A stretch of 64,000 nucleotides of DNA from Patescibacteria group bacterium (GCA_041662965.1 JBAZRI010000003.1:1331-65330); one strand, 5' to 3'; shown: positions 2,483 to 61,135, numbered from the stretch's first letter. The notes: generated by a model from the letters alone, not told the origin. Numbers and translations: made by a program.

Positions 2483-2497
2483 CCGCCAGCTAAAAAT

Positions 2498-3902: not shown

Positions 3903-4334
3903 TCACAATAAATACAGATTATAATATAAAATCGCTTTGCCTAAAATATAATCTTTGCAAGGATTAAAGAAGTCTATGCCTTGCGAATTATCCCCTTTGG
4001 TGATAAAACAGCCGTCTTGTTCGCCAATAACCCGATGAACGATTATCCGGCCCCGGGAAGGATCGTAAAAAGCTATAATCTGATTATTTAAATCTTCGCC
4101 TTGAGCTATTGATTTAATAACAACGATATCTCCTTTGGCTATTACCGGCAGCATTGATTCTGATTTAATCAGTAAAATCGGAGCCGGGGCGCCAAAAATT
4201 ATCGGCAAGGAAAAATAAACGATAAAGACTATTTCTAAAATAATCCCCAAGCCAATCTCCAGCTTAAGCCAGTTAAAATTCTTTAATAATTTGCTGTTCA
4301 TTTTCAATCTTAACCAATTTATAATTAATGCCAT
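3903..4334 (-). CDS. signal peptidase I, SipW/archaeal-ER type (S26B)
   Basis: Motifs SESMLP (Ser nucleophile), GDIVV, IIVHRV (His) and TKGDN. It has an N-terminal TM helix. The start is ATG 4334 or ATG 4301; either overlaps the upstream gene. Confidence 0.75.
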   Translation of the reverse strand: MALIINWLRLKMNSKLLKNFNWLKLEIGLGIILEIVFIVYFSLPIIFGAPAPILLIKSESMLPVIAKGDIVVIKSIAQGEDLNNQIIAFYDPSRGRIIVHRVIGEQDGCFITKGDNSQGIDFFNPCKDYILGKAILYYNLYLL

Positions 4335-15752: not shown

Positions 15753-15753
15753 T

Positions 15754-16234
15754 GTCATTGCGAGCGCCATTTTTGTCATTCCCGAAGCCGCAGGCTGTCG
15801 GGAATCCAGGGGTTAAACGCATAATTAATATTTATAGCATATCAAGAAATAAATCGTACCAGGTTGGGTTGTCTTTTTCTATTAAATTTATTTTCCATTG
15901 CCGATTCCATTTTTTCAATTGTTTTTCTCTTAATATAGCGTCTTGAATATATTGATATTCTTCAAAATATATTAATTTATCAATTTTATCCCCCTCCGGG
16001 GATAAATATTTAGCCGTGAAACTTTGAGGATTTTGTTTTAATTTATGTTGAAAACTTCTATTGAATAAATCTTTGGTTACTCCGATATATAATGTGCCGT
16101 TTCTTTTGCTCGCCAGTATATAAACATAATAAATATGGGCTTTCTTAGTTGTATTATACATAGCATTCATTTCATTCGCGCCTGGATTCCCGCCTGCGCG
16201 GGAATGACAAAGAAATTGGCTTTCTCGCAATGAC
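15754..16234 (-). mobile_element. GIY-YIG ORF flanked by roughly 55 bp terminal inverted repeats
   Basis: The left end GTCATTGCGAG...GTCATTCCCG..GGGAATCCAGG (15754-15810) is the reverse complement of the right end CCTGGATTCCCGCCTGCGCGGGAATGAC...CTCGCAATGAC (16181-16234). The element fills the spacer between two surface-protein genes. Confidence 0.65.
15832..16170 (-). CDS. GIY-YIG nuclease family protein (UPF0213-like)
   Basis: YYVYILASKRNGTLYIGVT...R...H, then EKQLKKWNR. I trimmed the start to ATG 16170 because the ORF-track N-terminus translates the inverted repeat. Confidence 0.8.
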   Translation of the reverse strand: MNAMYNTTKKAHIYYVYILASKRNGTLYIGVTKDLFNRSFQHKLKQNPQSFTAKYLSPEGDKIDKLIYFEEYQYIQDAILREKQLKKWNRQWKINLIEKDNPTWYDLFLDML

Positions 16235-16243
16235 AGCTAATCC

Positions 16244-17974
16244 TTACTGGCAGCTGCTATTACTGCTCGCCGCGCCGTCGCAACAAGACGGATTGCCGTT
16301 TACCCCTAGTCCGGAACAGGGCGTATAGCAATTCTGGTAAATATCCTTAACGCCGGAATTCAACTCTACCGAATAATCAGTATTTTCATTAAACTGATCA
16401 TGATTAACTTTAGCGGTAGTTTTATTGTCGGCAAAATTATCGCTTTTGGTTATCCAATAGTTATAGCCAGCGCCCGCGCTTCTTAAATTTATGCTTGAAC
16501 TGTTTAAGGACGAGCTCATCAGCAATTTACTAAAAGTAGCTTCCGGCACGGCGGATAAATCCACTCCGCTGCCGCCGACCGGCGGGCTGATATGATCTAT
16601 TTTTGGCGGTATGATATCAATCGTATTATTAGTATTAAACAGCCAATAGTAATCATCGCCTTGGCCGTCATGGGTTTGGCTATTGGCGTTATAAGGCGGT
16701 AAAGCACTTTGCGACTCTGGCCCAACCGCCGTGCCGTCGCCATTGCCGTCAAACGAATTATCCGCCATATCAACTACGCCGTTATAGGGGAAAATGGCCG
16801 AAGCGATATCAGGGTCAAAAGCCGCGGCATTGATAAAGGCCTTAATTTGCTTATCGCCGGGCAGGCAATAAATCGTCTGGCCGCAGGAATTAACGCCGCA
16901 AGCGTCAAAAGTCAAATATTCCACGGTTTCATACTGGTTGGAAATGTAAAAAATGCCTTCAATTATAACATTGTCCGTGTTATTAAAAATCTTAATATTT
17001 TCAAAACCGCTGCCGTCTCTAAAAGCTCCGCTGGCCGAAATCGGATCAACCGCTTCGGAAAAATTTATCTGCACGACCACGTTTCTCGGCTCGGTAGCGC
17101 TGGGCTGGGGAATAATGCTCTCAACTTTCGGCGGCGTGATATCAATAAACGTGCCGACTTCAAACATCCAGTCATAAGCAATATCGCCGATGACGGAGCC
17201 AAAAGCCGGATCGCCGTTGACCTTTTTTATGTTTTTACCTAAGCCGACCGAGTACCAAATCTTTTCCGTGGGCGAACCTAAATATTGCGATGGCTTAAAA
17301 ACAAAAGTTTTATTGTCATCGGTTTTTACCGCGCTAACGTCAAAAGTAACCGCGCCGGCCACGCCGTCCACGGTTTTATAAATTTTAATATTTTGCTGAT
17401 TGATTTTATTGTCAACTATAATCGTCGCCGGATCAATCGCCTCTTTAAAAGTAACCGCGATTTTTGTGTTCCTGGGAATATCTTTTTGGTTGCGCCCGGG
17501 ATAATGGGAATTGATTATGCCTGAACCCAAAGCCGAAATTCCGCCGCCTCCGCCTCCGCCCGGAGGCACGGGAACATTGCCGCCGGCCGCGCCCGTCAGC
17601 CTATTTAAAATAAAACTTACAATGGCGAAAGCCGACAAAATAATTATTAAGCCGATAACCGCGTTTTGCAATATTTTTTTCGCTTGCGTTATTTTTTCTT
17701 CATTGCCTTCAGAAGTCATCCAAATCCAGCCGGCATACATTATTAAGCTAACGGCGATAATGCCTAAAAAGCCGATAAAAATCCTGATAATTCTGGCGAT
17801 AATTACTCTAATATCCTGGGAGTTGCTTAAGCCCGTGCCTTCGGCATAGTTTAAGCCGACTTCAGGCCCGGCCGCGGCCAAGGCGAAATTCGCCAATAAA
17901 AAAATAGCCAAGAGCATAAATAAACATATGCCGGCTATTTTATAAAGCCTATTAATTTTTTTGGTTTTTAGCAT
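16244..17974 (-). CDS. surface protein with an N-terminal T4SS-pilin-like domain, Ig-like (SbsA-type) domains and a Cys-rich C-terminus
   Basis: The N-terminus is a paralog of the giant protein (AAGPEVGLNYAEGTGLS...MYAGWIWMTSEGNEEKITQAKKIL). It has a poly-Gly/Pro linker, ITPPKVESIIP...INFSEAVDP, and ends CCDGAASSNSSCQ. Start trimmed to ATG 17974. Confidence 0.75.
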   Translation of the reverse strand: MLKTKKINRLYKIAGICLFMLLAIFLLANFALAAAGPEVGLNYAEGTGLSNSQDIRVIIARIIRIFIGFLGIIAVSLIMYAGWIWMTSEGNEEKITQAKKILQNAVIGLIIILSAFAIVSFILNRLTGAAGGNVPVPPGGGGGGGISALGSGIINSHYPGRNQKDIPRNTKIAVTFKEAIDPATIIVDNKINQQNIKIYKTVDGVAGAVTFDVSAVKTDDNKTFVFKPSQYLGSPTEKIWYSVGLGKNIKKVNGDPAFGSVIGDIAYDWMFEVGTFIDITPPKVESIIPQPSATEPRNVVVQINFSEAVDPISASGAFRDGSGFENIKIFNNTDNVIIEGIFYISNQYETVEYLTFDACGVNSCGQTIYCLPGDKQIKAFINAAAFDPDIASAIFPYNGVVDMADNSFDGNGDGTAVGPESQSALPPYNANSQTHDGQGDDYYWLFNTNNTIDIIPPKIDHISPPVGGSGVDLSAVPEATFSKLLMSSSLNSSSINLRSAGAGYNYWITKSDNFADNKTTAKVNHDQFNENTDYSVELNSGVKDIYQNCYTPCSGLGVNGNPSCCDGAASSNSSCQ

Positions 17975-18059
17975 GGAAAAAATGAATTTAAAAACTTTGA
18001 CTTTTGCACAGTCTTGTAATAATATTATAACATAAACAAAATAGCAAAAGCAAACAATC

Positions 18060-19529
18060 ATGACCATAAATCAAATCATCAACAACTTTAAGGAGAATAA
18101 CCCCAAGGCTGACCCCACTATGATCCAGCTGGCTTATGAATTCGCCGTTAAAGCCCATTCCGGGCAAAAAAGAAAAAGCGGCGAACCCTATATTCAGCAC
18201 TCTTTGCATACGGCTTTCGTTTTAGTGCAGATTAAAGCCGATATGGAAACCATAATCGCCGGCCTGCTCCATGATATTCCCGAAGATACCGAATTTACGC
18301 TGGCCGATATTGAAAAAAACTTCGGCAAAGAGATCGCTGATCTGGTGGAAGGCATAACTAAATTAAGCAAGATAAAATACCGCGGCATTGAACGCTACCG
18401 CGAAAGCTTGCGCAAAATGTTTTTAGCCATGGCGCAAGACCTAAGGGTTATTTTAATAAAATTCGCCGACCGCCTGCATAACCTAAGGACATTGGAATCT
18501 CTGCCTTTGGAAAAACGCCAGCGCATCGCCCGCGAGACTTTGGAAATTTACGCTCCAATCGCCGGACTTTTAGGCATCTGGCGGTTAAAATGGCAGATGG
18601 AAGATATCTGCTTTAAGCACCTAAACCCGGAAGAGTATAAAAAACTGGCTTATAAATTTGAGGTAGAAAAAAGGCTTGAGCATAACCAATATATTCAAAG
18701 AGTAAAAAATATGCTGGGCGCGAAACTTAAAGAAGCAAAAATTCCTTTCCATATTATCAGCCGTTTTAAGCACCTTTACAGCATTTATCTTAAACTGCAG
18801 AAAAAAGACCGGAAATTTGACGAAATTTACGATGTTTTCGCTTTGCGCGTTATCGTGCCTGACGTTGCTAATTGCTATAAAACTTTAGGCATAATTCATT
18901 CTTTGTGGCGGCCTAACCCCGGCCGGTTTAAAGATTATATCGCCGTGCCAAAGCCTAACGGCTATCGGGCTCTGCATACCACTGTCTACGGCCCGGAAGG
19001 CAAATCAACGGAATTTCAAATCAGAACCGAAGAAATGGATGACGTGGCCAAATACGGCATCGCCGCCCATTGGTCTTATAAAATGGACGGCGGCCATAAA
19101 AACGATTCAAAAAAACAGCCGGACTGGGTAAAGGAAGTTTTGCATATCCAAAAAGAAACCGCGGACACGGCTGATTTTATCAAGCAGATAAAATTTGATG
19201 TTTTCCGCGACCGGATTTTTATTTTTACGCCTAAAGGCGATGTTTTTGACTTGCCGGAAGGAGCCACGCCGATTGATTTCGCTTATTACGTCCATTCGGA
19301 TATCGGCAACCAGGCGGTCGGCGCCAGGGTCAACGATAGAATCGCCACCTTAGACCAGGAATTAAAAAATGGCGACTTGGTGGAAATAACCACGGAGAAA
19401 AAACGCCAAGGCCCGAGCCGCGACTGGCTTAAATTCGTTAAAACCGCCACGGCCAGAAATAAAATCAAGCAAAATTTAAAATCCACCATGATGGATAATA
19501 TTAAAAAATTCATACCGAAGATAAAATAG
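18060..19529 (+). CDS. rel: RelA/SpoT homolog, (p)ppGpp hydrolase + synthetase + TGS domains
   Basis: HD motif LLHDIPEDT, synthetase motifs RFKHLYSIYLKL and YRALHTTV, and TGS motif IFIFTPKGDVFDLPEGATPIDFAY. At 489 aa it has no ACT-type C-terminus. Confidence 0.92.
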   Translation: MTINQIINNFKENNPKADPTMIQLAYEFAVKAHSGQKRKSGEPYIQHSLHTAFVLVQIKADMETIIAGLLHDIPEDTEFTLADIEKNFGKEIADLVEGITKLSKIKYRGIERYRESLRKMFLAMAQDLRVILIKFADRLHNLRTLESLPLEKRQRIARETLEIYAPIAGLLGIWRLKWQMEDICFKHLNPEEYKKLAYKFEVEKRLEHNQYIQRVKNMLGAKLKEAKIPFHIISRFKHLYSIYLKLQKKDRKFDEIYDVFALRVIVPDVANCYKTLGIIHSLWRPNPGRFKDYIAVPKPNGYRALHTTVYGPEGKSTEFQIRTEEMDDVAKYGIAAHWSYKMDGGHKNDSKKQPDWVKEVLHIQKETADTADFIKQIKFDVFRDRIFIFTPKGDVFDLPEGATPIDFAYYVHSDIGNQAVGARVNDRIATLDQELKNGDLVEITTEKKRQGPSRDWLKFVKTATARNKIKQNLKSTMMDNIKKFIPKIK

Positions 19530-19831: not shown

Positions 19832-20181
19832 AAGCACCTCCTCCTAAAGATTATTTTATTAGCCCAATTCTAATTTTTTATTATAAATTTTAAAGGACAA
19901 AATCCATAAATTAATAACTAAACAATAGTCTAAATTTTGCTGTTTGTCAATTATAATCCGGCCTAATTTTAGAGATAAATTTCAAACAAAACCGGAGATG
20001 CCTATCGCGTAATCTGCGCTGCGCCCGGAGACAGAACTGCGGCTAAAACAGCCGGCTCTTATGGCTCATGCCTACTCGCCCATTGGCTCATTTCCACCAT
20101 TTGAGCCATTAGCTTAAAACGATGGAGTTTTATTGGCATCCTTAATAAATTATTTCCTAGCGCCGGAATATAGGCGCATAT

Positions 20182-20529
20182 CTATAACTTATTATGCTTG
20201 GTATGTTTTCCTTTGGCTTTTTCAATCGGATATCTCCTGGCTGTTTCAATAAGTTTTTTTGGCAAAGCCAAGCTAATATTAATATTTAAATCATGCGACA
20301 TTAGTAAAACCCAATACAAAACATCTGCCAATTCGTCGGCTATTTCATTTTTATTTGTTTTTACATACTTTTCCATTTCTTGCTTATTTTTCCATTGAAA
20401 ATGCTCTAAAACCTCCGCCGCTTCCAACGCTAAAGATATAGCCATGTCTTTTGGATTGTGAAACTGTTTCCAGTCTCTTTCATCGCGAAATTTTATAACC
20501 TTTTTTGTTAACTCATTGATATCAGACAT
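20182..20529 (-). CDS. MazG-like all-alpha NTP pyrophosphohydrolase (DCTPP1/YpjD-like)
   Basis: FRDERDWKQFHNPKDMAISLALEAAEVLEHFQW and ADELADVLYWVLLMSHDLNI fit the MazG-type EExxE/D four-helix pattern. Confidence 0.8.
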   Translation of the reverse strand: MSDINELTKKVIKFRDERDWKQFHNPKDMAISLALEAAEVLEHFQWKNKQEMEKYVKTNKNEIADELADVLYWVLLMSHDLNINISLALPKKLIETARRYPIEKAKGKHTKHNKL

Positions 20530-20636
20530 ATTTTATAACTTATTTAAATTATATCTTATTTATCTTAGATTAAACCAAAATGCTTTTTTATATAATTTTC
20601 AACTTCTTTAATAATTTTTATATTATCAATTATCTA

Positions 20637-21251
20637 TTATCTGTTTAAATCTAGCAAAGCTATTTCAACCGGCGCGGAGCTAACGCCAAAATATTTTGCT
20701 ATCGGTCTGGCTAAATATTGATTAAGAATTTTTGGGTCTATTTCAGTTATTTTAATTTGATCTTCAGAAATAAATTGATTAATCACTTTTTTTCTAATTT
20801 CATATAATTGACCCCGAGGAATTAATAAAAAATTGGCAAAAATATGCGCTTGTGTTTCCATAAAATGGTATTGATCTCCCGGTATTTCATCATAAAACCT
20901 GTTAAAATCATCGGCATCGCTAATTCCAAATTGTTCATATAAATTTTTATGCAACGCCAAATGGCCGATTTCATGGGCATATGAAAATCTTAATCTATTA
21001 TTATTTTTATCTGCTTCAAATAAATCATAATCTACGCAAATCTGTTGCCAAGACGAAGTTATATAAGCATCAATATTAAACAATTTAAATAGGCCTGGCT
21101 TGAATATAATATCCATCCTTAAATTAACACTGATTATTTTTTCTATATCCACCGGAATTATGTCGTTCCAATATTTTTTTCTAAATAGCTCGGCGGCATC
21201 GGAAATTTCTCCCTTGGTTAGAAAGGGCACTTTAACGCTCTGAAAATTCAT
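20637..21251 (-). CDS. ImmA/IrrE-family zinc metallopeptidase
   Basis: HEXXH motif within YAHEIGHLALH. It lies 4 nt downstream of an XRE HTH gene, which is the canonical pairing. Confidence 0.8.
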   Translation of the reverse strand: MNFQSVKVPFLTKGEISDAAELFRKKYWNDIIPVDIEKIISVNLRMDIIFKPGLFKLFNIDAYITSSWQQICVDYDLFEADKNNNRLRFSYAHEIGHLALHKNLYEQFGISDADDFNRFYDEIPGDQYHFMETQAHIFANFLLIPRGQLYEIRKKVINQFISEDQIKITEIDPKILNQYLARPIAKYFGVSSAPVEIALLDLNR

Positions 21252-21255
21252 TTTT

Positions 21256-21636
21256 TTATTTATTATTTTTTATTAGCTTAAATAACGCCTCTATTTCTCG
21301 CTTGGTCGGCTTCTCGTCTCTCATAGTCCGAAAAAACGCCGGCAGAAGTTTAACTGTATCTGCGTCGGAAAGTATATCTTCCGGTATGATGCCTTGAGCG
21401 ATCGCAGCGCAGTCAATAAAATCATTCAGTTCTTTTTTATTTGGTAATAATCCAAATATTTTAGTCCACTTTATGAGAGTATTTTTATCCGAAGGCGGAG
21501 CCATTTTTCCTCTTTCAATTTTACTCCAATTACTAGGATCATAATCGGCTAATTTACATATTTCCCTTAGGCTAAGGTTTTTTTCAATTCTTAAATTTTT
21601 TAACAATTCGCCGAATTTTTGTAGATTTTTTTTCAT
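21256..21636 (-). CDS. XRE-family helix-turn-helix regulator
   Basis: LKNLRIEKNLSLREICKLADYDPSNWSKIERGK, an HTH_3-like motif. Confidence 0.75.
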   Translation of the reverse strand: MKKNLQKFGELLKNLRIEKNLSLREICKLADYDPSNWSKIERGKMAPPSDKNTLIKWTKIFGLLPNKKELNDFIDCAAIAQGIIPEDILSDADTVKLLPAFFRTMRDEKPTKREIEALFKLIKNNK

Positions 21637-21676
21637 TGATTCACCACCTCTCTAGTTTTTTAATTAATATTAAATA

Positions 21677-21715
21677 AGTGTGGTATTATTTTACCACACT
21701 TAAAAATATTGTCAA
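21677..21715 (-). promoter_or_regulatory. promoter plus palindromic operator of the XRE/ImmA pair
   Basis: On the minus strand, TTGACA (21715-21710), a 16 nt spacer, then TAAAAT (21693-21688). A 10 bp inverted repeat AAGTGTGGTA / TACCACACTT (21677-21701) spans the -10 box. GAGAGGTGGTGA precedes the ATG. Confidence 0.55.
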
Positions 21716-21725
21716 ATTGTTTTAC

Positions 21726-22538
21726 TTATTTACCACTTTTAATTTTTCTTACTTTTTCAGCCTTCTTTACCCTGGTATGCGCTTTGCCGATGCCGTCCGG
21801 CGTAGGTAAATTCTCCGGCATAGTGCCGCCCAAACCCTGAATGGTGTTTCTGACTTTTTGGCCGACTTCATAATGGGCCAGATTAGCGCTTGTCTCTCCT
21901 TTAATATTTTCTCGCCTGATTTTAGCGTCGGCCTGCGTGGCGCGAAACAGATTGGCCGCCAACTCTTCACTGCCCATATGGTCAAGAATATGCTGTGTCT
22001 TTTTAAGATTCTTGCGATTATGGATGTCTTGCATGGTAAGGCCGCCGTAAAGCCCTCTGTAGCCGTAATTTTGAAAAATCGCGTAATTTTCTACACCGGC
22101 GATTGAGGCCGCCTGGGTTAAGCTTACATTGTGTTTTTTCATCTGCTCTCGCAAAAATACGCGCTTATTATCCTCAATTAAATTATCCGTCTTTTCCTGC
22201 CGGCGGGTTTGGATGGCAAAATAGGTCTGCCCTTTGGCGACTACGACTTTTGTCGGATCTGAATTTTGCATGACAAGATAACAAGCGTAACGGGAAAGAT
22301 ATATGATTTCCACGGGTTTTTCCGCTCCTGACCCAATCTTAACCATTTCGTTAGCTTCAACGAAATGGTTGTGGATAACCTCACCGCTATTCCCGCAGGC
22401 AATTTTCGCCCTTTCTATAACTCCGAGAAAATTGCGATAATCCGTGTATTCCAGAACTTTAGCTAAGTCGCGCGACGACCAATATCCCTTGCCATTATTA
22501 TCAAGCCGTTTAATATCTTCAAATTGATTTTTACTCAT
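21726..22538 (-). CDS. dinD: DNA-damage-inducible protein D-like (Bro-N type N-terminal domain)
   Basis: 270 aa. I recall close similarity to E. coli DinD over FEDIKR...WSSRDLAKVLEY..YRNF..VIERAK.AC.NSG....HF.E...MVKIGSGA...SRYACYLV.QN.DP.K...A.GQTYFAIQTRRQE. Confidence 0.8.
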   Translation of the reverse strand: MSKNQFEDIKRLDNNGKGYWSSRDLAKVLEYTDYRNFLGVIERAKIACGNSGEVIHNHFVEANEMVKIGSGAEKPVEIIYLSRYACYLVMQNSDPTKVVVAKGQTYFAIQTRRQEKTDNLIEDNKRVFLREQMKKHNVSLTQAASIAGVENYAIFQNYGYRGLYGGLTMQDIHNRKNLKKTQHILDHMGSEELAANLFRATQADAKIRRENIKGETSANLAHYEVGQKVRNTIQGLGGTMPENLPTPDGIGKAHTRVKKAEKVRKIKSGK

Positions 22539-22569
22539 ATTATTAGTATTTCATTAAAATCTATTTATA

Positions 22570-22598
22570 ATTATATACGAACAAAATACGAAATTCAA
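22570..22598 (-). promoter_or_regulatory. candidate promoter of dinD with direct repeats
   Basis: On the minus strand, TTGAAT (22598-22593), 17 nt, then TATAAT (22575-22570). The spacer holds two TTCGTAT direct repeats (22592-22586 and 22581-22575). Confidence 0.45.
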
Positions 22599-22602
22599 TA
22601 AT

Positions 22603-24096
22603 TTAAATATTATTCTTAACCAAAAAATCTTTTAAAACCATAGTGGCCTTGCAATCATCTTCATTATATTCCAAAATTCTTTTTAATATTTTTTCATCTT
22701 TGGTTTTTAAATATTCATTATACCATTGTATTGATAAAGCGCCGGAGGGCGTTTCGTCCCGCCATTTGAATCCCAGATAGACGGCAATCTCTTTTATAGA
22801 ATAACTCCCTAGTGGCCAATCGGTGTGCTTATAAATTATATCCATATATAAATCAATAGTCTTCTCCCGCGCGAAAAAGTCTTCCAGCTCGTCTTCGCTC
22901 ACGACTTCTGGGTATGTCTGGCGCATTTTTTTATAAACCGTCTTTTCATAAGGCGAATAATAATAAACCGCGAAGTCATCTTTCGGTAAAGTTCTGATGT
23001 AATCCCAAAATTTTTGCCAGGCAATTTTTTCACCTTCTGCCGTATTGCTTTCGGCTACGAAGCTTAAAAACCTTTCTTTACCGTTTTTTCTTTCATACAC
23101 GCCGTGAAGATAGACTAAATTTTGCGTCGGGTCGGCTTCAATATCAAAAAATAATTCCGTGGAAACTTCGGGCAAATTAAGATGCTCATAAATAACCGGT
23201 TTTTTAGTATTGGCAACGATATTGGCTCGAATAATTATTTTTTCAATTGTTTTCTCGCCCACGCCCGGTAAAAACTTTTTATTAGCCTTTTTCCGCGCCG
23301 CGATAACCGCGATATCTAATTGTGCGATATCTTTTACGCTATTAACCCCTAGCTGTTCAACAATAACATCTCGCTTGCTTCGTCCCAAATAAAATATATT
23401 GGTTAAGTCGTCACTTTCCTTACACCACTTTTTACAGCTTAAATACCAAGGGCACAATTTGCAAATAGCCGAACTGGCCGGTAAATTCTGCTTTTTATTC
23501 TTTATTAGCGCATCCGCCTCTTCTTTTATTTCTTCATACGCTTCCCACCAAGTCTCGGGACTGCGAACACCCATCTTATCATCTAATTTATATTCCGCTT
23601 CTTTTTCGTTTATATCAATAATCAAACCTATATTGTTTTTGGCAAATCCTTTTTCTTTTAATAATCCAGCGTAAACGCATAATTGCACGGCGTAATGCTT
23701 TTTTAGCCTGCCTTCGCCATCTTCGCTCTCCCCCTCATAGCCCAATCCAGCCTTAATATCAATTGGCAAATAATTACCATCGGATTGTTTTCTTAATAAG
23801 TCTGGTATGCCCATTAAATTCTCGCCTTTTAAAACTCCCTGATATATTAATTCATCACCGCGCTTCATAGCTTCCATAGCTAAATCAGCGGCCCGATCAA
23901 ATCCAATTTTACTTAAATCCGTAAACCCACCCAGCTTGCTGACCACTTTCTTTTCATGCTGGACGCCCCGATCCCAAAGCAATTGAACGAACGGATTAGT
24001 TTCTTTAATTTTCTCCTCTTGCGGACCCCAAACATCCCGCCACACCCGATGTGGACATTGGAGATAATTATATAGCTTTGAAGCGGTTATGGACAT
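22603..24096 (-). CDS. Cas4/RecB-like PD-(D/E)xK nuclease with a C-terminal RNase H-like domain (TM0106-type)
   Basis: N-terminal Cys (YLQCPHR), PIDIKAG (D-x-K), QLCVY (QxxxY), and a CKLCPWYLSC Cys cluster typical of Cas4-type Fe-S nucleases. The C-terminus has FFDIEADP...YLHGV...YNEDDC, an RNase H-like exonuclease fold. Confidence 0.8.
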   Translation of the reverse strand: MSITASKLYNYLQCPHRVWRDVWGPQEEKIKETNPFVQLLWDRGVQHEKKVVSKLGGFTDLSKIGFDRAADLAMEAMKRGDELIYQGVLKGENLMGIPDLLRKQSDGNYLPIDIKAGLGYEGESEDGEGRLKKHYAVQLCVYAGLLKEKGFAKNNIGLIIDINEKEAEYKLDDKMGVRSPETWWEAYEEIKEEADALIKNKKQNLPASSAICKLCPWYLSCKKWCKESDDLTNIFYLGRSKRDVIVEQLGVNSVKDIAQLDIAVIAARKKANKKFLPGVGEKTIEKIIIRANIVANTKKPVIYEHLNLPEVSTELFFDIEADPTQNLVYLHGVYERKNGKERFLSFVAESNTAEGEKIAWQKFWDYIRTLPKDDFAVYYYSPYEKTVYKKMRQTYPEVVSEDELEDFFAREKTIDLYMDIIYKHTDWPLGSYSIKEIAVYLGFKWRDETPSGALSIQWYNEYLKTKDEKILKRILEYNEDDCKATMVLKDFLVKNNI

Positions 24097-24110
24097 TTAT
24101 TTTTATTTGT

Positions 24111-24452
24111 TTAGATAATTCCAAAGTGTTTCTTAAGATAACTTTCGACTTCTTTAATAATTTTTATATTTACCTCCCCTATTTTATGAATAAACCTTAA
24201 TTTATCATAGCTAATTATGTGATGTACTTTTATAATTGAATCTTCATATAATCTATTGCTAACGTCTTTTTTGATAAAAATATCATCTCTATGACGATTA
24301 CCGGAAGAAGATAACGGCATAATCGTAACTAAATTAACGGCGGTAATTAAATTATTAGCCATAATAATAAGCGCCGGACGGTCGTTATAATATTCGTGCC
24401 CAACGCTTTTTTCTTCGGCCAATTTAATCAACCAGATTTCCCCCTTTTTCAT
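24111..24452 (-). CDS. MazF/PemK-family endoribonuclease toxin
   Basis: 113 aa. KKGEIWLIKL...DRPALIIMAN...VTIMPLSS matches the PemK/MazF pattern (GdIw...RPvlVvs...vvPlTs). Confidence 0.8.
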   Translation of the reverse strand: MKKGEIWLIKLAEEKSVGHEYYNDRPALIIMANNLITAVNLVTIMPLSSSGNRHRDDIFIKKDVSNRLYEDSIIKVHHIISYDKLRFIHKIGEVNIKIIKEVESYLKKHFGII

Positions 24453-24454
24453 AT

Positions 24455-25189
24455 TTACTTAAGATTTTTATAATAATTAGCTGCCGCTTCCGAAATTGAA
24501 CCTAAAGCTTTAAGCGCGTCGCGGCCGGCGGCATCCTGCATGTCTTCAAACGAAGAAGTTTTAATTACATTTTTTATTAAACCATTAATCATATAATTAT
24601 CGTCAGCATGAATATAAATTGGTTTAAAATTTTCCGATGATTCGGAAACCAGCGCGATTTGATCCTCCCTTTTATCCCAAAAAAACTTTTTAATATTGGC
24701 ACATCCTTCAATAACCGATAGCACATAGTCGCCATTACGGGGATTTTTATTATCAGGATCAACTAAAACATAATCGCCATCTTCTATTGTCTGTACCCCA
24801 TTAACTTTGGCGCGGTTCATTGACGGCCCTTGAGCGCGTACTGCGAAAATATTTTTTACCTTGCCGATTAAGCGCCGCGATATTCTCAAATAGCCTTCTA
24901 AATTTTCCTCGGCAATAATTTTAGCTTCGCCGCAATCGGCTCCGCCGTAAATCGGCACGGCCACGATCTCGCTAACGCCCTGTTTTATTTCCGAATTAAT
25001 TAATCGCGCTTCACCGGTTTTTTTATCTATTTCAATAAATCCCTTTTTCTCTAATTGGCTTAAATGATGGCTGATTTTTTGCGGATGGCTTTCGTCAACC
25101 AATAAGCCAATATCTCTAAGGCTCATTTTTTCCATATTAATCTTAGAAACGATTTTTAATAGTTTTTCTTGTATGGGATGCAAATGCAT
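24455..25189 (-). CDS. LexA-like repressor (winged HTH + S24 peptidase) with a C-terminal extension
   Basis: N-terminus is LexA-type wHTH (MSLRDIG...ISHHLSQLEKKGFIE). S24 motifs are VPIYGGADCGE (cleavage-loop region), GPSM (Ser) and ANIKKF (Lys). About 45 aa follow the S24 fold. Confidence 0.8.
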   Translation of the reverse strand: MHLHPIQEKLLKIVSKINMEKMSLRDIGLLVDESHPQKISHHLSQLEKKGFIEIDKKTGEARLINSEIKQGVSEIVAVPIYGGADCGEAKIIAEENLEGYLRISRRLIGKVKNIFAVRAQGPSMNRAKVNGVQTIEDGDYVLVDPDNKNPRNGDYVLSVIEGCANIKKFFWDKREDQIALVSESSENFKPIYIHADDNYMINGLIKNVIKTSSFEDMQDAAGRDALKALGSISEAAANYYKNLK

Positions 25190-25219
25190 AAAATTTTATG
25201 ATTATTTATACTTATCCAC

Positions 25220-25248
25220 ATTATAGACTAAGAACAATGTTTTGTCAA
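25220..25248 (-). promoter_or_regulatory. consensus sigma70-type promoter of the lexA-like operon
   Basis: On the minus strand, TTGACA (25248-25243), 17 nt, then TATAAT (25225-25220). The spacer contains the small palindrome AACA-T-TGTT. Confidence 0.65.
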
Positions 25249-25275
25249 GTTTTTTATAATTACTCGTCAAGTCTC

Positions 25276-25304
25276 TTGACGGCTATTTCTATTTTTGCTA
25301 AAAT
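25276..25304 (+). promoter_or_regulatory. divergent promoter toward the DUF2188 gene
   Basis: TTGACG (25276-25281), 17 nt, then TAAAAT (25299-25304). The -35 box overlaps the GTCAAG-N3-CTTGAC palindrome at 25266-25280. The leader is about 140 nt and has two hairpins. Confidence 0.55.
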
Positions 25305-25453
25305 AATAAATAACCCTTAAAAATCAAAACGGGTTAGACCAATAAAGGCCTTACCCGCTTGAAAATGTGCGGCCGATTATCCGCACAAACGCTCTTAATA
25401 ATTAAAGGATAGCACATTCTCAATTTTTGGGGAATAATAATTAATTTATACTT

Positions 25454-25693
25454 ATGTTACCGAAATTTACACTTAGTCTGAATGACGAAAAAGATGTGTG
25501 GCAACTTAGAAACGATATGACAAACAGAGTTCTGAAAAACTTCGACACTAAGGGTGAAGCCTTAGAGGGTGGGGTTATGAAAGATTTGCTTGGGAACAAT
25601 GGTGGATCAGTAAAGATTCAAAAAGAAAACCACATATTCCAAGAAGAAAGGACATACCCTCGCAGCAAAGACCCTTCTGAATCCAAAGGTTAA
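25454..25693 (+). CDS. DUF2188-like small protein
   Basis: 79 aa. W.L.....R....F.TKGEAL......, then KIQKENHIFQEERTYPRSKDPSESKG, resembles the DUF2188 pattern (...I..E.tYG.DP.PpkG). Confidence 0.6.
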   Translation: MLPKFTLSLNDEKDVWQLRNDMTNRVLKNFDTKGEALEGGVMKDLLGNNGGSVKIQKENHIFQEERTYPRSKDPSESKG

Positions 25694-25705
25694 TAATCAT
25701 CAAAA

Positions 25706-25735
25706 ACAGGAAGCTCAAAGCTTCCTGTTTTTATT
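25706..25735. terminator. bidirectional terminator between the DUF2188 gene and the HEPN-like gene
   Basis: 9 bp stem ACAGGAAGC / GCTTCCTGT with a 5 nt loop, flanked by A5 upstream and T-runs downstream. Confidence 0.7.
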
Positions 25736-26477
25736 TTCCCTCTACCGCCCTTATCTCCTCCTCCCCCAGTCCATACAACTCATTAATTTCTTTTAATCGA
25801 TAAACTTCAAATCTTTTCAAATAATCTACAACCATTTTTGTTTTATCTTTAGTATCTATCTTCGCATTATCATATATTATATTAGTAGAAATTAATTTCG
25901 ATAAAAACATATCTATTATCTTTTCAATAATATTAAAAAGTTTCCTAATTTCCTCGCCGGTTATATTTATTTCATCTTTTTTTATATCATCGTGAGCGAG
26001 ATATTGATCGCGATAAGTTTTTAGTCGTTTAATAATTTCCTTATTTTTCTCAATGTCAGATTGGATTGCTAATATATCTTCATATTTTACGCCCTTATAT
26101 TCTCTAATAAGCATAGCGATAAAATTTGGATCTTGCCCTTGGCTATATTCTGCGAAGTCACTTACAGATAATTTGGCTATATTACTTTGCGTATAGTTAA
26201 TTATCTTCGTAACATGGAGTGAATTATCGGCAATATCAAAAAACTTAGCAAGCTCTAAAAAGAAATAAACACGCAGAGCTTCTTTTAAAGGGAGAAAAAA
26301 ACTACTAAAATCTTTTTCTATAATCTTCTTATTCTTTTCCAATGTGTCTTGCTCAACTGCACTGGGATCAACTAATTCAATAAGTGTTTCAAATATATGA
26401 AAAGCGGAGAGTGCCTTAAAATAACGACCCTCTATATTTTTTATATATGAAATTATCGTGTTAAATTCTTGACTCAT
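25731..26477 (-). CDS. HEPN-like protein (Rx5H motif), possibly AbiU2-like
   Basis: 248 aa, predicted all-helical by composition. Single R-DQYLA-H motif (YRDQYLAHDD). Its ATG overlaps the stop of the upstream R-M gene (TAATG). Confidence 0.5.
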   Translation of the reverse strand: MSQEFNTIISYIKNIEGRYFKALSAFHIFETLIELVDPSAVEQDTLEKNKKIIEKDFSSFFLPLKEALRVYFFLELAKFFDIADNSLHVTKIINYTQSNIAKLSVSDFAEYSQGQDPNFIAMLIREYKGVKYEDILAIQSDIEKNKEIIKRLKTYRDQYLAHDDIKKDEINITGEEIRKLFNIIEKIIDMFLSKLISTNIIYDNAKIDTKDKTKMVVDYLKRFEVYRLKEINELYGLGEEEIRAVEGK

Positions 26478-29173
26478 TATTTTTTAATAATATTAATCTC
26501 CTCTCCCGTCAACCCATACAGCTCATAAACTTTTTTATCAATTTCTTTATCCGTCTTTTCAATTTCTTCTTTTACCCCATTATATTCTTTATCGTCCATA
26601 ATCGGGTCTAATTTTTGCAGTTCTTTATTTTTTTCCAACATTTTGTCAACTAATTTCACTAATTCATCGTGTTTGGCTTTTTCATTTTTTTTCTTAAAAT
26701 CTATCTTATAAATCGGTATTTCTTTTAAATGATTTATCTTAATTTCTGCGAATAATTTTCCTTTGCGCGGTTGTATGGCTAAAAAATACCATGTACCTAA
26801 TAAAGAATTTAAAATTGCTAAAACATATTTCAAGCTAATCTGATTTTCTAAATTTTTATATAAAACGAAAAAATTATTGCTCGCATAAAAGTTTTCTTCG
26901 TCAATCGAAGCTATAATTCTATCTCCAGTTCTTCTCACTAATATTTTTTTATTAACAAAATATTCCTCTCTGCCCAAATTAGCATACTCCTTTTTATCTC
27001 TATCAATTATTTTTTTATCATATATGACATATTTACCCGCCCATTTTTTTGAATATCTATTAATTTCATTCCCTTTAAATAATAACTTCTTACAAAGTTC
27101 TGAGCTTGAAGAATCAATAAATAATTTTTTTCTTACATTACCAGAATGGATTCCTTCGTGTATCTCAAAATTTTTTCCTAAATTTGCAGAAACATCGTCT
27201 AGTTTTTGTTTTAATTTTAATATATTATCATCAAAATATAAGTTAAATTTATTATCTTTATTTTCTAAAAATATAATCTGTTTAATTTTTTTATTTTCAC
27301 TATTAACTATAACATTCATTAAATTGCTATCTCTTTTTATTTTGACTTTTTCTTTTCTTAAAATCATTACTACGGAATCTAAGTTTACCCCCGCGAAAGC
27401 CATTCCAGTATAATAAATATTGGTTATAATAAAATTATCTAAAATTATCTTTCTAATCAATGGATAATTTTTTAACAAAATAATATCAGGCAATATAAGC
27501 CCTAAAAAACCATCTTCTTTTAATAAATTAAAAGACTTCTCTATGAATAAAGCAAAGGTATCTACGATGCCACTACCTGCTATAAAATATTCTTTATAAT
27601 AATCCTTTTCTTCTTTAATAATTTCTGCACCCCATGGCGGATTACCGATTATCACGTCAAAACCTCCTTGTTTAAAAACCGGTTCAAATTTTTTCTGCCA
27701 ATTAAACGGCTTTTTTTCTTTATAATTTTCACCGAAATATTTTTTTAATTCCTCTTCTTTGCCCGAAATCAAAGAATTGCCGTTTTCTATATTATGGGCT
27801 AAATTAGGCAAAAGCTCTCTTTGCCCTAAGACTTTTAATAATAAATTCAATTGAGCGATTTCTACGGCTTCCTGATCTAAATCCACGCCATAAATATTTG
27901 AAGTTAAAATACTTACTTTTCTGGCATAATTTTTCATAATATCCGCGTCAAGCTCATTATTTTCTCTTTTAATATGGTTATCTAAAACTTCAAAGGCTTT
28001 AATTAAAAACGAGCCCGAACCGCAAGCCGGATCTAAAATTTTAATTTTCCCTGCCTCAAAACCTGACTTACCTTTTAATAATTCGCCCAAAGTATTTTTT
28101 ACGATGTAATCCACGATATATCTCGGAGTATAATAGATGCCCTGTGATTTTCTTTTGCCTGATTTTTTATCTTTTTCTTCCTGCTGAATCTGCCCTAAAT
28201 ATTGCTCATAAATACTGCCTAAAATATCGGCGTTGATAGAAGCGAAATCATAACGGATGCCTTTGGTGTTTTTATATAATTCTTTAATAATTCTTGCCAA
28301 TAGCTCATCTTCATATATAAGCGTATCGCAAATAGCCGGTAAAAATAATTTGCTGTTATAGCCGTCATTATAATCCCTAAATAATTTCTTCATTTCATCA
28401 GCCAAATTTAATTTGCCTTTGCCATCTTCCCAATTTCTAACGATTTCCCTTAACTTTTCGCCTTCAATTTTTCTGTCTTCGGTCGTCCTGATAAAAATCA
28501 GCCTGTCCAAAAGCCTTTGCACGCTCTCGGCAATTTGCTTATCGCTTAATTTTTTATCCCCGTTCCAGCCTTTTAAATCTTTAAACAGCAACGACCGCCA
28601 TTTTACCAAATCATCGGCTAATAATTTATCTACCGCTTCTTTTTTTGGTTTTTTAAAATTGGCTTCCGCGTATTTGTCTAAATCGCCTTTTAGCATTGAC
28701 TCTTTAGACAACCACCAAAGCTTTTCGTCTTTTAAATAATCTTTATAATTTATTTCAAAAATCAAGCTTCTCTCCGCGTCCGACTCGTCCCATTCGGCGT
28801 TATAAACTTTTATACCTTCAAAATCAGTTAAAATCGCCCAAGGCACGCTTTTATGCCAGGCATAAGAAATGGCTTGCTCGCCATGCTTAGCTTCCCTTAA
28901 ATCCACGCTTGGTTTTTTAGCCTCAACAAAAAATTTAATGACGTCATTAACATGAAAGGCGTAATCGGCGCGCCCGCCGGAAACCTGCGTTTCCGAAGTA
29001 ACTTCATGATTGGATATATTATTATAAACATCCCAGCCCAAAGCCTGAAATAAAGGCAAAATAAAATCCTTACAAGTCATTGACTCGTTTTTCTTCTTAA
29101 ATTCAGCCTCGGTTAAGGCGGTGAATTTATTTACCAGCCGCTCAATTTGTTTTTTAGCTTCTTGTTTATTCAT
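26477..29173 (-). CDS. Type IIG restriction-modification enzyme (fused PD-(D/E)xK nuclease and N6-adenine methyltransferase)
   Basis: N-terminus GRADYAF...FFVEAKKP (D...ExK). SAM motif I is ILDPACGSGSFL and motif IV is IIGNPPWG. A long C-terminal region is a putative target-recognition domain. Confidence 0.85.
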   Translation of the reverse strand: MNKQEAKKQIERLVNKFTALTEAEFKKKNESMTCKDFILPLFQALGWDVYNNISNHEVTSETQVSGGRADYAFHVNDVIKFFVEAKKPSVDLREAKHGEQAISYAWHKSVPWAILTDFEGIKVYNAEWDESDAERSLIFEINYKDYLKDEKLWWLSKESMLKGDLDKYAEANFKKPKKEAVDKLLADDLVKWRSLLFKDLKGWNGDKKLSDKQIAESVQRLLDRLIFIRTTEDRKIEGEKLREIVRNWEDGKGKLNLADEMKKLFRDYNDGYNSKLFLPAICDTLIYEDELLARIIKELYKNTKGIRYDFASINADILGSIYEQYLGQIQQEEKDKKSGKRKSQGIYYTPRYIVDYIVKNTLGELLKGKSGFEAGKIKILDPACGSGSFLIKAFEVLDNHIKRENNELDADIMKNYARKVSILTSNIYGVDLDQEAVEIAQLNLLLKVLGQRELLPNLAHNIENGNSLISGKEEELKKYFGENYKEKKPFNWQKKFEPVFKQGGFDVIIGNPPWGAEIIKEEKDYYKEYFIAGSGIVDTFALFIEKSFNLLKEDGFLGLILPDIILLKNYPLIRKIILDNFIITNIYYTGMAFAGVNLDSVVMILRKEKVKIKRDSNLMNVIVNSENKKIKQIIFLENKDNKFNLYFDDNILKLKQKLDDVSANLGKNFEIHEGIHSGNVRKKLFIDSSSSELCKKLLFKGNEINRYSKKWAGKYVIYDKKIIDRDKKEYANLGREEYFVNKKILVRRTGDRIIASIDEENFYASNNFFVLYKNLENQISLKYVLAILNSLLGTWYFLAIQPRKGKLFAEIKINHLKEIPIYKIDFKKKNEKAKHDELVKLVDKMLEKNKELQKLDPIMDDKEYNGVKEEIEKTDKEIDKKVYELYGLTGEEINIIKK

Positions 29174-60423: not shown

Positions 60424-60433
60424 TAATAATTTT

Positions 60434-61132: not shown

Positions 61133-61135
61133 AAT

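What the first reader, a model, noticed from the sequence alone, without database searches (positions are those of the whole stretch)
22603..25248. A LexA-like S24 repressor sits in the antitoxin slot of a MazF/PemK toxin, in one operon with a Cas4/RecB-like nuclease
Seen in sequence:
- A consensus TTGACA-17-TATAAT promoter lies at 25248-25220.
- The lexA-like stop codon (24457-24455) is only 2 nt from the mazF-like ATG (24452).
- The mazF-like stop (24111) is 14 nt from the ATG (24096) of a 497 aa nuclease with PD-(D/E)xK, QxxxY and Cas4-type Cys-cluster motifs plus an RNase H-like C-terminus.
- No MazE/PemI-sized ORF is present on either strand.
- The LexA-like protein has about 45 aa beyond the S24 fold (NVIKTSSFEDMQDAAGRDALKALGSISEAAANYYKNLK).

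Established knowledge: MazF toxins are normally neutralised by a small upstream antitoxin whose C-terminal tail binds the toxin. LexA-type S24 proteins self-cleave on a damage signal.

Inference: the LexA-like protein may be both repressor and antitoxin, so that self-cleavage releases an RNase and de-represses a DNase. That would make a damage- or infection-triggered three-gene module. I do not know of a characterised LexA-MazF-nuclease system.
Basis: partly seen in the sequence, partly recalled or inferred. Interest (0 to 1): 0.8.

Follow-up and report, generated by a model that had tools for sequence, protein, structure and literature searches.

The report
LexA-type repressor doubling as MazF antitoxin
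In this candidate-phyla-radiation bacterium, a self-cleaving LexA-type repressor carries at its end the short tail that small antitoxins use against a MazF RNase toxin, so a DNA-damage sensor and a toxin's antidote appear to be one protein; the nuclease gene next door is a local passenger.

Summary
The only 12/12 sigma-70 promoter in 6 kb precedes three tightly packed genes: a LexA-like S24 protein, a PemK/MazF toxin 2 nt later, and a TM0106 nuclease 14 nt after that. No separate antitoxin ORF is present.

The antitoxin idea is well supported by comparison. In 9 of 9 lineages examined (LexA-like identity 51-100%), a LexA-like protein with the ~35-aa tail sits directly upstream of a PemK gene. 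Three tailless relatives and one with a degenerate tail have no PemK next door.

A profile of the tail finds 131 representative clusters. Most are 40-100 aa proteins. Among the 44 longer ones scanned, the tail ends classical antitoxin domains (Panacea, RelB, Phd/YefM, MazE, HTH). One ParD-like example overlaps a PemK gene. The tail is therefore a portable toxin-neutralising module that was grafted onto LexA.

The cleavage site (Cys86-Gly87) and the Ser123/Lys167 dyad are invariant.

The three-gene idea is not supported. The TM0106 nuclease follows the pair only in this window, and the third gene differs everywhere else.

Release of the toxin by cleavage is inferred, not shown. I found no precedent in the literature library. 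I rate it a new variant of type II toxin-antitoxin systems.

The parts
25220..25248 (-). Sigma-70-type promoter of the operon: TTGACA (25248-25243), 17-nt spacer, TATAAT (25225-25220).
   Evidence: the only 12/12 match in 20000-26000. Read directly.
25266..25280 (.). Candidate operator: perfect inverted repeat GTCAAG-N3-CTTGAC, 18 bp upstream of the -35 hexamer.
   Evidence: It is the only perfect match in the 64-kb window; the only other hit has 2 mismatches. TGTCAAG-N2-3-CTTGACA sits at the same relative position upstream of lexA-like genes in L001, L002, L064, L067, L077, L081 and the tailless relative L078. Function is untested. One arm could also serve as the -35 of a divergent + strand promoter.
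24455..25189 (-). LexA-like repressor/antitoxin gene, 244 aa. Winged-helix DNA-binding domain aa 1-63, linker, S24 self-cleaving domain aa 75-209, tail aa 210-244.
   Evidence: Pfam S24 2.6e-17. TIGR00498 lexA scores 82.5 bits, below its 110.95 cutoff. AF2 mean pLDDT 83. Foldseek top hits are full-length LexA 3k2z, 8trg and 3jso.
24929..24934 (-). Codons for Cys86-Gly87, the predicted self-cleavage bond (Cys-Gly as in UmuD, where E. coli LexA has Ala-Gly).
   Evidence: A84, C86 and G87 are invariant in 53 homologues. Codons read.
24821..24823 (-). Codon for Ser123, the predicted nucleophile of the S24 domain.
   Evidence: Invariant in alignment A1.
24689..24691 (-). Codon for Lys167, the predicted general base of the S24 domain.
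   Evidence: Invariant in alignment A1.
24458..24562 (-). C-terminal tail (aa 210-244, ...FEDMQDAAGRDALKALGSISEAAANYYKNLK): the predicted MazF-neutralising module.
   Evidence: Absent from tailless relatives. Two low-confidence helices in AF2, pLDDT 51-68. The tail profile finds 64 small proteins in the word-index search and 131 representative clusters in the full scan. These include Phd/YefM, RelB, MazE, Panacea and HTH fusions, plus RHH-like N-termini by eye. ParD-like-plus-tail P0162 overlaps a PemK gene.
24111..24452 (-). MazF/PemK-type toxin gene, 113 aa, starting 2 nt after the lexA-like stop.
   Evidence: PF02452 1.8e-17. Nearest solved relatives are Kid (1e-4) and M. tuberculosis MazF7 and MazF9. 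Arg25 is invariant and Ser48 aligns with Thr in relatives.
22603..24096 (-). TM0106-family nuclease gene (Cas4-like PD-(D/E)xK domain, helix-hairpin-helix, RNase H-like domain). Probably co-transcribed here, but not a conserved part of the module.
   Evidence: TIGR03491 260.9 bits. RNase_H_2 1.1e-29. The gap is 14 nt, and the scan calls no terminator between mazF and the nuclease; the only promoter-like hits inside mazF are weak (9-10 of 12) and at chance frequency. Absent downstream of the pair in the eight other lineages.

Best explanation
The conserved unit is a two-gene type II toxin-antitoxin module. The toxin is a MazF/PemK endoribonuclease. The antitoxin is a full LexA-type protein: winged-helix DNA-binding domain, a Cys-Gly cleavage site, and an S24 Ser/Lys self-cleaving domain. 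About 35 residues have been added to its C-terminus (consensus MQxAAGxDxLKxLGPISKxExxYYxNLK).

That tail is a portable toxin-neutralising segment. In Patescibacteria it also ends Phd/YefM, RelB, MazE, ParD-like, HTH and Panacea antitoxins.

Proposed mechanism:
1. In resting cells the LexA-like dimer represses its own promoter, probably through the GTCAAG-N3-CTTGAC palindrome. Its tails occupy MazF. (Inferred.)
2. A signal that provokes LexA-type self-cleavage, such as RecA on single-stranded DNA after damage or during phage replication, cuts Cys86-Gly87. The DNA-binding domain is lost and the operon is de-repressed. (Inferred.)
3. The S24-tail fragment becomes a protease substrate, as E. coli LexA fragments do. 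The toxin:antitoxin ratio rises and MazF is freed to cut RNA. (Inferred.)

In this genome the operon also carries a TM0106 RecB/Cas4-like nuclease. It would be induced by the same signal, but it is a lineage-specific passenger.

Shown here: the gene order, the domains, the catalytic residues, the tail-toxin co-occurrence and the modularity of the tail.
Inferred: tail-MazF binding, RecA dependence, cleavage-triggered release and operator binding.
For: 1. Tail and PemK co-occur in nine lineages: the window; L001/L002; L020 = L067-69; L064-66; L070-73; L077; L081; L082. The junctions range from a 22-nt overlap to a 6-nt gap in eight lineages; the L081 gap is 57 nt.
2. Negative controls. Tailless LexA relatives L074, L076 and L078/79 have no PemK next door. 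P0030 has a degenerate tail and is followed by RecQ, with no PemK.
3. Decay goes together. In L003 the LexA body is replaced by a tRNA-Tyr and an HTH gene, only the 45-aa tail ORF is left, and mazF has a stop at codon 15.
4. The tail is an antitoxin module.
   - The profile search gives 64 small proteins, E down to 2e-16, and 131 representative clusters.
   - Pfam on the 44 longer ones finds SocA_Panacea in 7, HTH_3 in 3, RelB in 2, PhdYeFM in 2 and MazE in 1.
   - P0162 (ParD-like plus tail) overlaps a PemK gene by 4 nt in three of four contigs and abuts it in the fourth.
5. MazFs paired with tail-bearing antitoxins share a signature, DSxIKV..I.SFD..RF..KIG...YLKKHF, whatever the antitoxin's N-domain.
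6. A84, C86, G87, S123 and K167 are invariant in 53 homologues. The model matches full-length LexA structures. The tail is two low-confidence helices, as expected for a segment that folds on binding.
7. The toxin keeps Arg25 and Ser48.
8. A consensus promoter and a conserved palindrome lie upstream.
Against: - No experiment and no complex model.
- Only one classical tail-bearing antitoxin (P0162) could be placed next to a PemK gene. Contexts of the others were not retrievable.
- Many stand-alone ~50-aa tail proteins look like remnants of broken LexA-tail genes. P0124 has no MazF nearby. An independent function of the tail is therefore not excluded.
- After cleavage the tail stays on the S24 fragment, so release of MazF needs a further degradation step that is only assumed.
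- The protein scores below the NCBIfam LexA cutoff.
- No recA and no regulon-wide operator was seen in the window.
Confidence: 0.65

Rival explanations
1. One reading: a dedicated three-gene system in which LexA-like self-cleavage unleashes an RNase (MazF) and a DNase (TM0106 nuclease) as joint effectors.
For: In the window the nuclease starts 14 nt after mazF, and the scan calls no terminator there and only weak, chance-level promoter-like hits. DNA-processing genes lie downstream of the pair in two other lineages. L077 has a weakly Cas4-like PDDEXK_1 protein. L067 has Pif1 plus an RNase_H_2 protein.
Against: TM0106 itself is absent from all eight other lineages. The third gene varies: TcmP plus radical SAM (L067), a 147-aa protein (L077), Fic (L081), NlpC/P60 (L082), an LTD protein (L064), small ORFs (L070), or a convergent ComF-like gene (L001). 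BLAST finds no similarity between the L077 nuclease and the window. A RecB/Cas4-like nuclease under a LexA-type repressor fits DNA repair as well as it fits an effector role.
Confidence: 0.08
2. The LexA body serves only as a DNA-binding and dimerising scaffold for an ordinary antitoxin tail. Toxin release depends on ordinary Lon/Clp turnover of the tail, as in other type II systems. Self-cleavage plays no part, or no longer occurs.
For: The tail works with many unrelated N-domains that have no protease activity. Cleavage at Cys86-Gly87 leaves the tail attached to the S24 domain. The protein is below the LexA equivalog cutoff.
Against: The cleavage-site residues and the Ser/Lys dyad are invariant across tail-bearing and tailless members down to about 50% identity. 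That argues the catalytic function is retained under selection.
Confidence: 0.17
3. mazF is simply one more gene of a LexA-controlled (SOS-like) operon. The tail has another role, for example a degradation tag or a partner-binding site, and MazF is held in check by something else or is weakly active.
For: LexA-repressed toxin genes are well known (tisB, yafNO). The orphan tail ORF P0124 sits upstream of ruvB without any MazF. AntA or Bro-N/DinD-type genes sit near the pair in three lineages.
Against: Tail and PemK co-occur strictly, 9 of 9 against 0 of 4. The tail occurs on Phd, RelB, MazE, ParD-like and Panacea antitoxins. No other antitoxin-sized ORF is present. Tail and toxin decay together in L003.
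Confidence: 0.08

Closest known systems
MazEF / PemIK (Kis-Kid) type II toxin-antitoxin systems
   Same: A PemK-fold RNase toxin (PF02452; Kid is the best solved relative). The antitoxin gene lies immediately upstream and almost abuts the toxin gene. The antitoxin has an N-terminal DNA-binding part and a flexible C-terminal toxin-binding part.
   Different: The antitoxin is not an AbrB/SpoVT-fold MazE (no PF04014 hit). It is a 244-aa LexA-type protein with an intact self-cleaving S24 protease domain between the DNA-binding domain and the tail.
LexA / SOS-controlled toxin-antitoxin loci (tisB/istR-1, yafNO, dinJ-yafQ, Caulobacter higBA)
   Same: They link DNA damage and LexA cleavage to toxin expression (review PMC11951105; PMC13384398 abstract).
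   Different: In those loci LexA acts in trans, only as a transcriptional repressor, and a separate antitoxin neutralises the toxin. Here the LexA-type protein is encoded in the operon and carries the neutralising segment itself.
Canonical LexA, UmuD and lambda CI (S24 self-cleaving proteins)
   Same: Two-domain LexA architecture. A Ser/Lys dyad and a cleavage loop with Cys-Gly as in UmuD (the UmuD site is from my own knowledge).
   Different: An extra 35-aa tail. Below the NCBIfam LexA cutoff. The palindrome TGTCAAG-N2-3-CTTGACA is unlike the SOS boxes I know. RecA dependence and an SOS regulon are unshown.
Modular antitoxins such as Panacea (SocA-like) domain antitoxins
   Same: One portable element is combined with many partners. 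Here the tail is found on Panacea, RelB, Phd, MazE and HTH N-domains, and on RHH-like N-termini read by eye.
   Different: The portable element here is the short C-terminal toxin-binding tail, which has no Pfam family, not the N-terminal domain. Its toxin partner, where known, is one MazF clade.
CapH/CapP and ImmR/ImmA-type repressor-protease pairs that switch on defence or mobile-element genes after DNA damage
   Same: Proteolytic inactivation of a repressor is the trigger. A CapH/CapP-like HTH plus M78 pair lies about 1 kb beyond the nuclease gene in the same island, past dinD.
   Different: Those use a separate metalloprotease and only control transcription. Here the protease is intrinsic (S24), and the same polypeptide would also hold the effector post-translationally.

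Membership tests
LexA (SOS repressor, TIGR00498) | N-terminal winged-helix LexA DNA-binding domain | tested here: met
   PF01726 scores 22.4 bits, just under its 23.7 cutoff. The AF2 model has a wHTH at aa 1-63. Full-length LexA structures are the top Foldseek hits over about 210 columns.
LexA (SOS repressor, TIGR00498) | S24 domain with Ser/Lys dyad and a cleavage-site loop | tested here: met
   PF00717 2.6e-17. S123, K167, A84, C86 and G87 are invariant. The scissile pair is Cys-Gly rather than Ala-Gly.
LexA (SOS repressor, TIGR00498) | Score above the curated equivalog cutoff | tested here: not met
   82.5 bits against a cutoff of 110.95. I therefore call it LexA-like and do not file it as the LexA orthologue.
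LexA (SOS repressor, TIGR00498) | RecA-stimulated self-cleavage | not testable with these tools
   No recA in the window. Needs biochemistry.
LexA (SOS repressor, TIGR00498) | Controls a regulon through a shared operator | tested here: inconclusive
   The perfect palindrome occurs only at its own promoter in 64 kb. It is conserved upstream of orthologous genes elsewhere. Whole genomes were not available.
MazF/PemK toxin | PemK fold above the Pfam cutoff | tested here: met
   64 bits against 23.1. PDB relatives are Kid, MazF7 and MazF9.
MazF/PemK toxin | Catalytic Arg and Thr/Ser | tested here: met
   Arg25 in the RPA motif is invariant. Ser48 aligns with Thr/Ser of relatives. The correspondence with B. 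subtilis MazF R25/T48 is from my own knowledge.
MazF/PemK toxin | Sequence-specific RNA cleavage and toxicity | not testable with these tools
   Needs expression and cleavage assays.
Type II toxin-antitoxin module | Antitoxin gene adjacent to the toxin gene, same strand, tightly coupled | tested here: met
   The gap is 2 nt here. In seven of the eight other lineages the junction is between a 22-nt overlap and a 6-nt gap; the L081 gap is 57 nt.
Type II toxin-antitoxin module | Antitoxin segment that binds and neutralises the toxin | tested here: inconclusive
   The comparative support is strong.
MazE antitoxin (AbrB/SpoVT fold, PF04014) | Swapped-hairpin DNA-binding domain | tested here: not met
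   No PF04014 hit. The fold is LexA-like.
TM0106 RecB-like nuclease (TIGR03491) | Score above cutoff over the full length | tested here: met
   260.9 bits against 97.45, model positions 1-462.
Cas4 (TIGR00372) | Score above the equivalog cutoff | tested here: not met
   37.7 bits against 65. No CRISPR-cas genes were seen in the window.
Proposed LexA-MazF-nuclease three-gene system | Conserved adjacency of all three genes | tested here: not met
   The nuclease is present in 1 of 9 lineages.

The most novel reading that the evidence does not exclude
In these Patescibacteria the tail-bearing protein is the cell's own SOS repressor, not an extra paralogue. Every SOS induction (RecA on single-stranded DNA from damage or from a replicating phage) would then also, by design, remove the antidote of a MazF RNase. 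DNA damage sensing would be hard-wired to translational shutdown, dormancy or abortive infection, through one polypeptide with a defined molecular trigger.
Probability: 0.3. Interest if true: 0.85.

Novelty: new variant of a known kind. Interest (0 to 1): 0.7.

Why it matters
What actually triggers chromosomal type II toxins is a long-standing open question. Here the trigger would be readable from the architecture, because the antitoxin contains a sensor-protease domain whose activating signal is known in model bacteria. That makes a clean test possible: a non-cleavable S123A mutant against wild type, and tail-less against tail-only constructs.

The work also defines an unannotated antitoxin tail with no Pfam family. 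It has 131 representative clusters, found so far in Patescibacteria, and it is swapped between at least five classical antitoxin domain families and LexA. This is useful for annotating the many small "hypothetical" proteins of candidate-phyla-radiation genomes.

Finally, it shows that the neighbouring nuclease should not be read as part of the system.

Tried and rejected
- **Homology to DPANN antitoxin tails.** I first thought the tail was homologous to the W[DE]xLSDEALxNFEKSL tails of the 67-aa antitoxins paired with more distant MazF relatives in DPANN archaea.
  - An HMM of those tails does not find the LexA tails.
  - The reverse profile gives only marginal hits (E 0.03-0.16 in a 1241-sequence set).
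  - hhalign gives a probability of 1.6%.
  - I do not use this resemblance as evidence.
- **Stand-alone tail proteins.** The ~50-aa tail proteins are not clean evidence for an independent mini-antitoxin.
  - L003 and L083-90 are remnants of broken LexA-tail genes with mazF inactivated or absent.
  - Several N-termini resemble the last S24 strand.
- **Synteny.** A conserved chromosomal position (ftsZ - lexA/mazF - nrdR, seen in L064 and L067) does not hold in the window. There ftsA/ftsZ lie 21 kb away in another arrangement and nrdR is absent.
- **Regulon operator.** The palindrome is not found upstream of dinD or any other gene in the window.
- **RNA antitoxin or known RNA.** No Rfam hit in the window or in five related loci. 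No tRNA in the window. Antisense promoter-like hits are at chance level.
- **Phage origin.** No relative in viral contigs.
- **Defence-system libraries.** PADLOC has no model for the pair.
- **Literature.** Six searches found LexA only as a transcriptional regulator of toxin-antitoxin loci, plus an uncharacterised database prediction of Xre-S24 with HipA in Campylobacter.
- **Single origin of the fusion.** A neighbour-joining tree without the tail columns interleaves tail-bearing groups with tailless ones. Several gains or losses are likely.
Full report
**1. The observation**

Reading the minus strand:
- The lexA-like TAA at 24457-24455 is followed by 2 nt and then the mazF ATG at 24452.
- The mazF stop at 24113-24111 is followed by 14 nt and then the nuclease ATG at 24096.
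- TTGACA (25248-25243), a 17-nt spacer and TATAAT (25225-25220) form the only 12/12 promoter match in 20000-26000.
- The scan calls no terminator between the three genes, and the few promoter-like hits inside them are weak (9-10 of 12) and at chance frequency.
- No other ORF of antitoxin size with a plausible product lies in or around the pair.

The tail is about 35 aa, not 45.

**2. What the proteins are**

- LexA-like protein: Peptidase_S24 2.6e-17, plus a near-threshold LexA DNA-binding domain. NCBIfam lexA scores 82.5 bits, below the 110.95 cutoff.
- Its AF2 model, built on 53 homologues, has mean pLDDT 83. It shows a winged helix (1-63), the S24 beta fold (75-209) and two low-confidence helices (212-229 and 234-241).
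- Foldseek puts full-length LexA from Thermotoga and E. coli first. UmuD' and lambda CI rank lower.
- In the 53-sequence alignment A84, C86, G87, S123 and K167 are invariant. The cleavage loop and catalytic dyad are thus intact. The scissile pair is Cys-Gly, as in UmuD (my own knowledge).
- Toxin: PemK_toxin 1.8e-17. Its closest solved relatives are Kid and M. tuberculosis MazF7/MazF9. It keeps Arg25 and Ser48.
- Nuclease: a full-length TM0106-family protein (260.9 bits), with Cas4-like, helix-hairpin-helix and RNase_H_2 parts.
- Organism: a Patescibacteria (candidate phyla radiation) MAG.

**3. The pair is conserved; the trio is not**

I searched from the toxin side in representative genomes and in metagenomes. 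I also looked up individual LexA-like homologues.

Nine distinct lineages have a tail-bearing LexA-like gene, 51-100% identical to the window's. In all nine it sits directly upstream of a PemK gene:

| Lineage |
|---|
| window |
| L001/L002 |
| L020 = L067-69 |
| L064-66 |
| L070-73 |
| L077 |
| L081 |
| L082 |

The controls go the other way:
- Tailless relatives of 208-216 aa have no adjacent PemK: L074 and L076, followed by mscL, and L078/79, followed by small ORFs and a TIR protein.
- P0030 has a tail that has lost the YY motif. It is followed by recQ.
- In L003 the LexA body has been replaced by a tRNA-Tyr and an HTH gene. Only the 45-aa tail ORF remains, and mazF carries a stop at codon 15.

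The TM0106 nuclease follows the pair only in the window. Elsewhere the next gene differs:

| Locus | Next gene(s) |
|---|---|
| L067 | TcmP plus a radical SAM protein, then Pif1 and an RNase_H_2 protein |
| L077 | a 147-aa protein, then a weakly Cas4-like PDDEXK_1 protein |
| L081 | Fic |
| L082 | NlpC/P60 |
| L064 | an LTD protein |
| L070 | small ORFs |
| L001 | a convergent ComF-like gene |

. DNA-processing genes therefore recur loosely in 3 of 9 lineages, but not as one gene family.

**4. The tail is a portable antitoxin module**

- Of the 120 best LexA-like clusters, 37 carry the tail. The rest stop at the end of the S24 fold.
- A profile of the tail alone finds 64 small proteins, E down to 2e-16 for the whole 5.8-billion-sequence database. 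None has a Pfam domain except one Phd/YefM.
- The filter-only search of 1.84 billion representatives finds 131 clusters.
- I scanned the 42 longest of these plus P0162 and P0180 against Pfam. The tail is the C-terminal end of SocA_Panacea (7, two of them with an HTH_3), HTH_3 (3), RelB (2), PhdYeFM (2) and MazE (1) proteins, and of LexA fragments. By eye, other carriers have ribbon-helix-helix-like or HicB-like N-termini.
- P0162 has a ParD-like N-terminus plus the tail. It overlaps a PemK gene by 4 nt in three of four contigs and abuts it in the fourth.
- MazFs that follow tail-bearing antitoxins share a sequence signature, whatever the N-domain: LexA-type, Phd-type (L004 and L021, whose tails are more divergent) or ParD-type.

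This is the main evidence that the LexA tail neutralises MazF.

**5. Caveats on the tail**

- Many stand-alone ~50-aa tail proteins are probably relics of broken LexA-tail genes.
- P0124 is seen on many contigs. It lies after a LexA-like fragment (aa 166-207) and before ruvB, with no MazF. An intact but more distant LexA sits 2 kb upstream.
- That genome therefore had two LexA-like genes, which argues that the fusion can be a paralogue.
- Resemblance to the tails of DPANN antitoxins is not statistically supported.

**6. Regulation**

- A perfect GTCAAG-N3-CTTGAC palindrome (25266-25280) lies 18 bp upstream of the -35 hexamer. It has no other perfect match in the window.
- TGTCAAG-N2-3-CTTGACA occupies the same place upstream of the gene in seven other loci, including a tailless close relative. 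More distant loci have the same half-sites further apart.
- I take it as the candidate operator, untested.
- No copy precedes dinD, which has its own promoter.

**7. Context**

The window is chromosomal:
- ftsZ/ftsA at 960-3763;
- relA/spoT at 18060-19529, plus aminoacyl-tRNA synthetases, topA and dprA.

The module sits in a 9-kb island (20182-29173). The island also holds a MazG-like protein, an HTH plus M78 pair resembling CapH/CapP, dinD, DUF2188, AbiU2 and a type IIG restriction-modification enzyme. A related type IIG enzyme also lies upstream of the pair in L067.

**8. Mechanism**

Shown: architecture, intact catalytic residues, tail-toxin co-occurrence, modularity of the tail.

Inferred:
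- The dimer represses its own promoter and its tails block MazF.
- A LexA-type cleavage signal cuts Cys86-Gly87 and de-represses the operon.
- The S24-tail fragment is then degraded, as E. coli LexA fragments are by ClpXP and Lon (my own knowledge). MazF is freed.

The weakest step is the last one, because cleavage alone leaves the tail attached to the S24 domain.

**9. Comparison and novelty**

- It works like a MazEF-type type II system and the toxin is a family member. The antitoxin is not a MazE.
- LexA is known to repress toxin-antitoxin loci in trans. I found no report of a LexA-type protein acting as the antitoxin.
- The nearest item is an uncharacterised database prediction of Xre-S24 with HipA.
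- I rate it a new variant of a known kind.

**10. Phylogeny**

A neighbour-joining tree of the LexA part without the tail columns places the tail-bearing proteins in three or four groups, interleaved with tailless ones. The degenerate-tail P0030 is nested inside the main group. Either the fusion is old and was lost repeatedly, or the tail-mazF cassette was acquired more than once.

Noticed in passing
window 20182-21636 (-): An HTH (XRE) gene at 21256-21636, an M78 (ImmA/IrrE-type) peptidase gene at 20637-21251 and a MazG-like pyrophosphohydrolase gene at 20182-20529 lie in a row. PADLOC matches capH and capP. This may be a second module in the same island that is triggered by cleavage of its repressor.
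   Followed up: partly
window 21726-22538 (-); L077 565-1383; L081 964-1851: A DinD homologue (NF008573, 367 bits; Bro-N domain; PADLOC PDC-S13) with its own promoter follows the nuclease. A 45%-identical Bro-N protein lies near the pair in L077, and an AntA-domain protein lies just upstream in L081. Antirepressor-like neighbours occur in 3 of 9 lineages. Their meaning is unknown.
   Followed up: partly
window 25731-29173 (-); L067 2121-4997: An AbiU2 (HEPN) gene and an 898-aa type IIG restriction-modification gene lie upstream of the module. A related type IIG enzyme (47% identity over about 350 aa) sits upstream of the LexA-tail/MazF pair in L067.
   Followed up: partly
L001 about 4100-4160; L064 about 5820-5880; L067 about 5830-5880; L077 about 5860-5910: A conserved GC-rich element (CCCCGGA...GGTTAATTAACTCGCTnCnGGGnAGCGAGAAAAG) lies 110-160 nt upstream of the lexA-like ATG in four loci. 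One hairpin shows apparent compensatory changes (CTCGCT/AGCGAG against TTGCT/AGCAA). There is no Rfam match. It is not present in the window.
   Followed up: partly
L083 3-398: A more distant LexA (39% identity) ends in a different acidic extension, PASEDFLGKGDDLIYEEIIE. It lies 2 kb upstream of the relic tail ORF P0124. This may be another kind of tail.
   Followed up: no
L078 4712-6645: The closest tailless LexA-like relative (P0042) heads a run of same-strand genes: a 68-aa zinc-ribbon ORF that overlaps it, a 133-aa ORF and a ThsB-like TIR protein. It has the same palindrome upstream. LexA-like repressors may head other defence cassettes in these bacteria.
   Followed up: partly
window 53041-55935 (-): The leucyl-tRNA synthetase carries a NUDIX domain (aa 399-516, 1.8e-13) inserted after the editing domain.
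   Followed up: no
window 25454-25693 (+): A DUF2188 gene is transcribed divergently from the lexA-like promoter region. A + strand promoter-like site (TTGACG-17-TAAAAT, 25276-25304) uses one arm of the palindrome.
   Followed up: no
window 3903-4334 (-): A 143-aa ORF next to ftsA has a weak, sub-threshold S24 match (20 bits) and no DNA-binding domain. It is not a second LexA.
   Followed up: no
window 10389-18067 (-), 60398-62212 (+): Large surface proteins (1796 aa and 607 aa) and two smaller ones carry T4SS_pilin-like N-terminal segments with Ig-like, TIG and fn3 domains.
   Followed up: no
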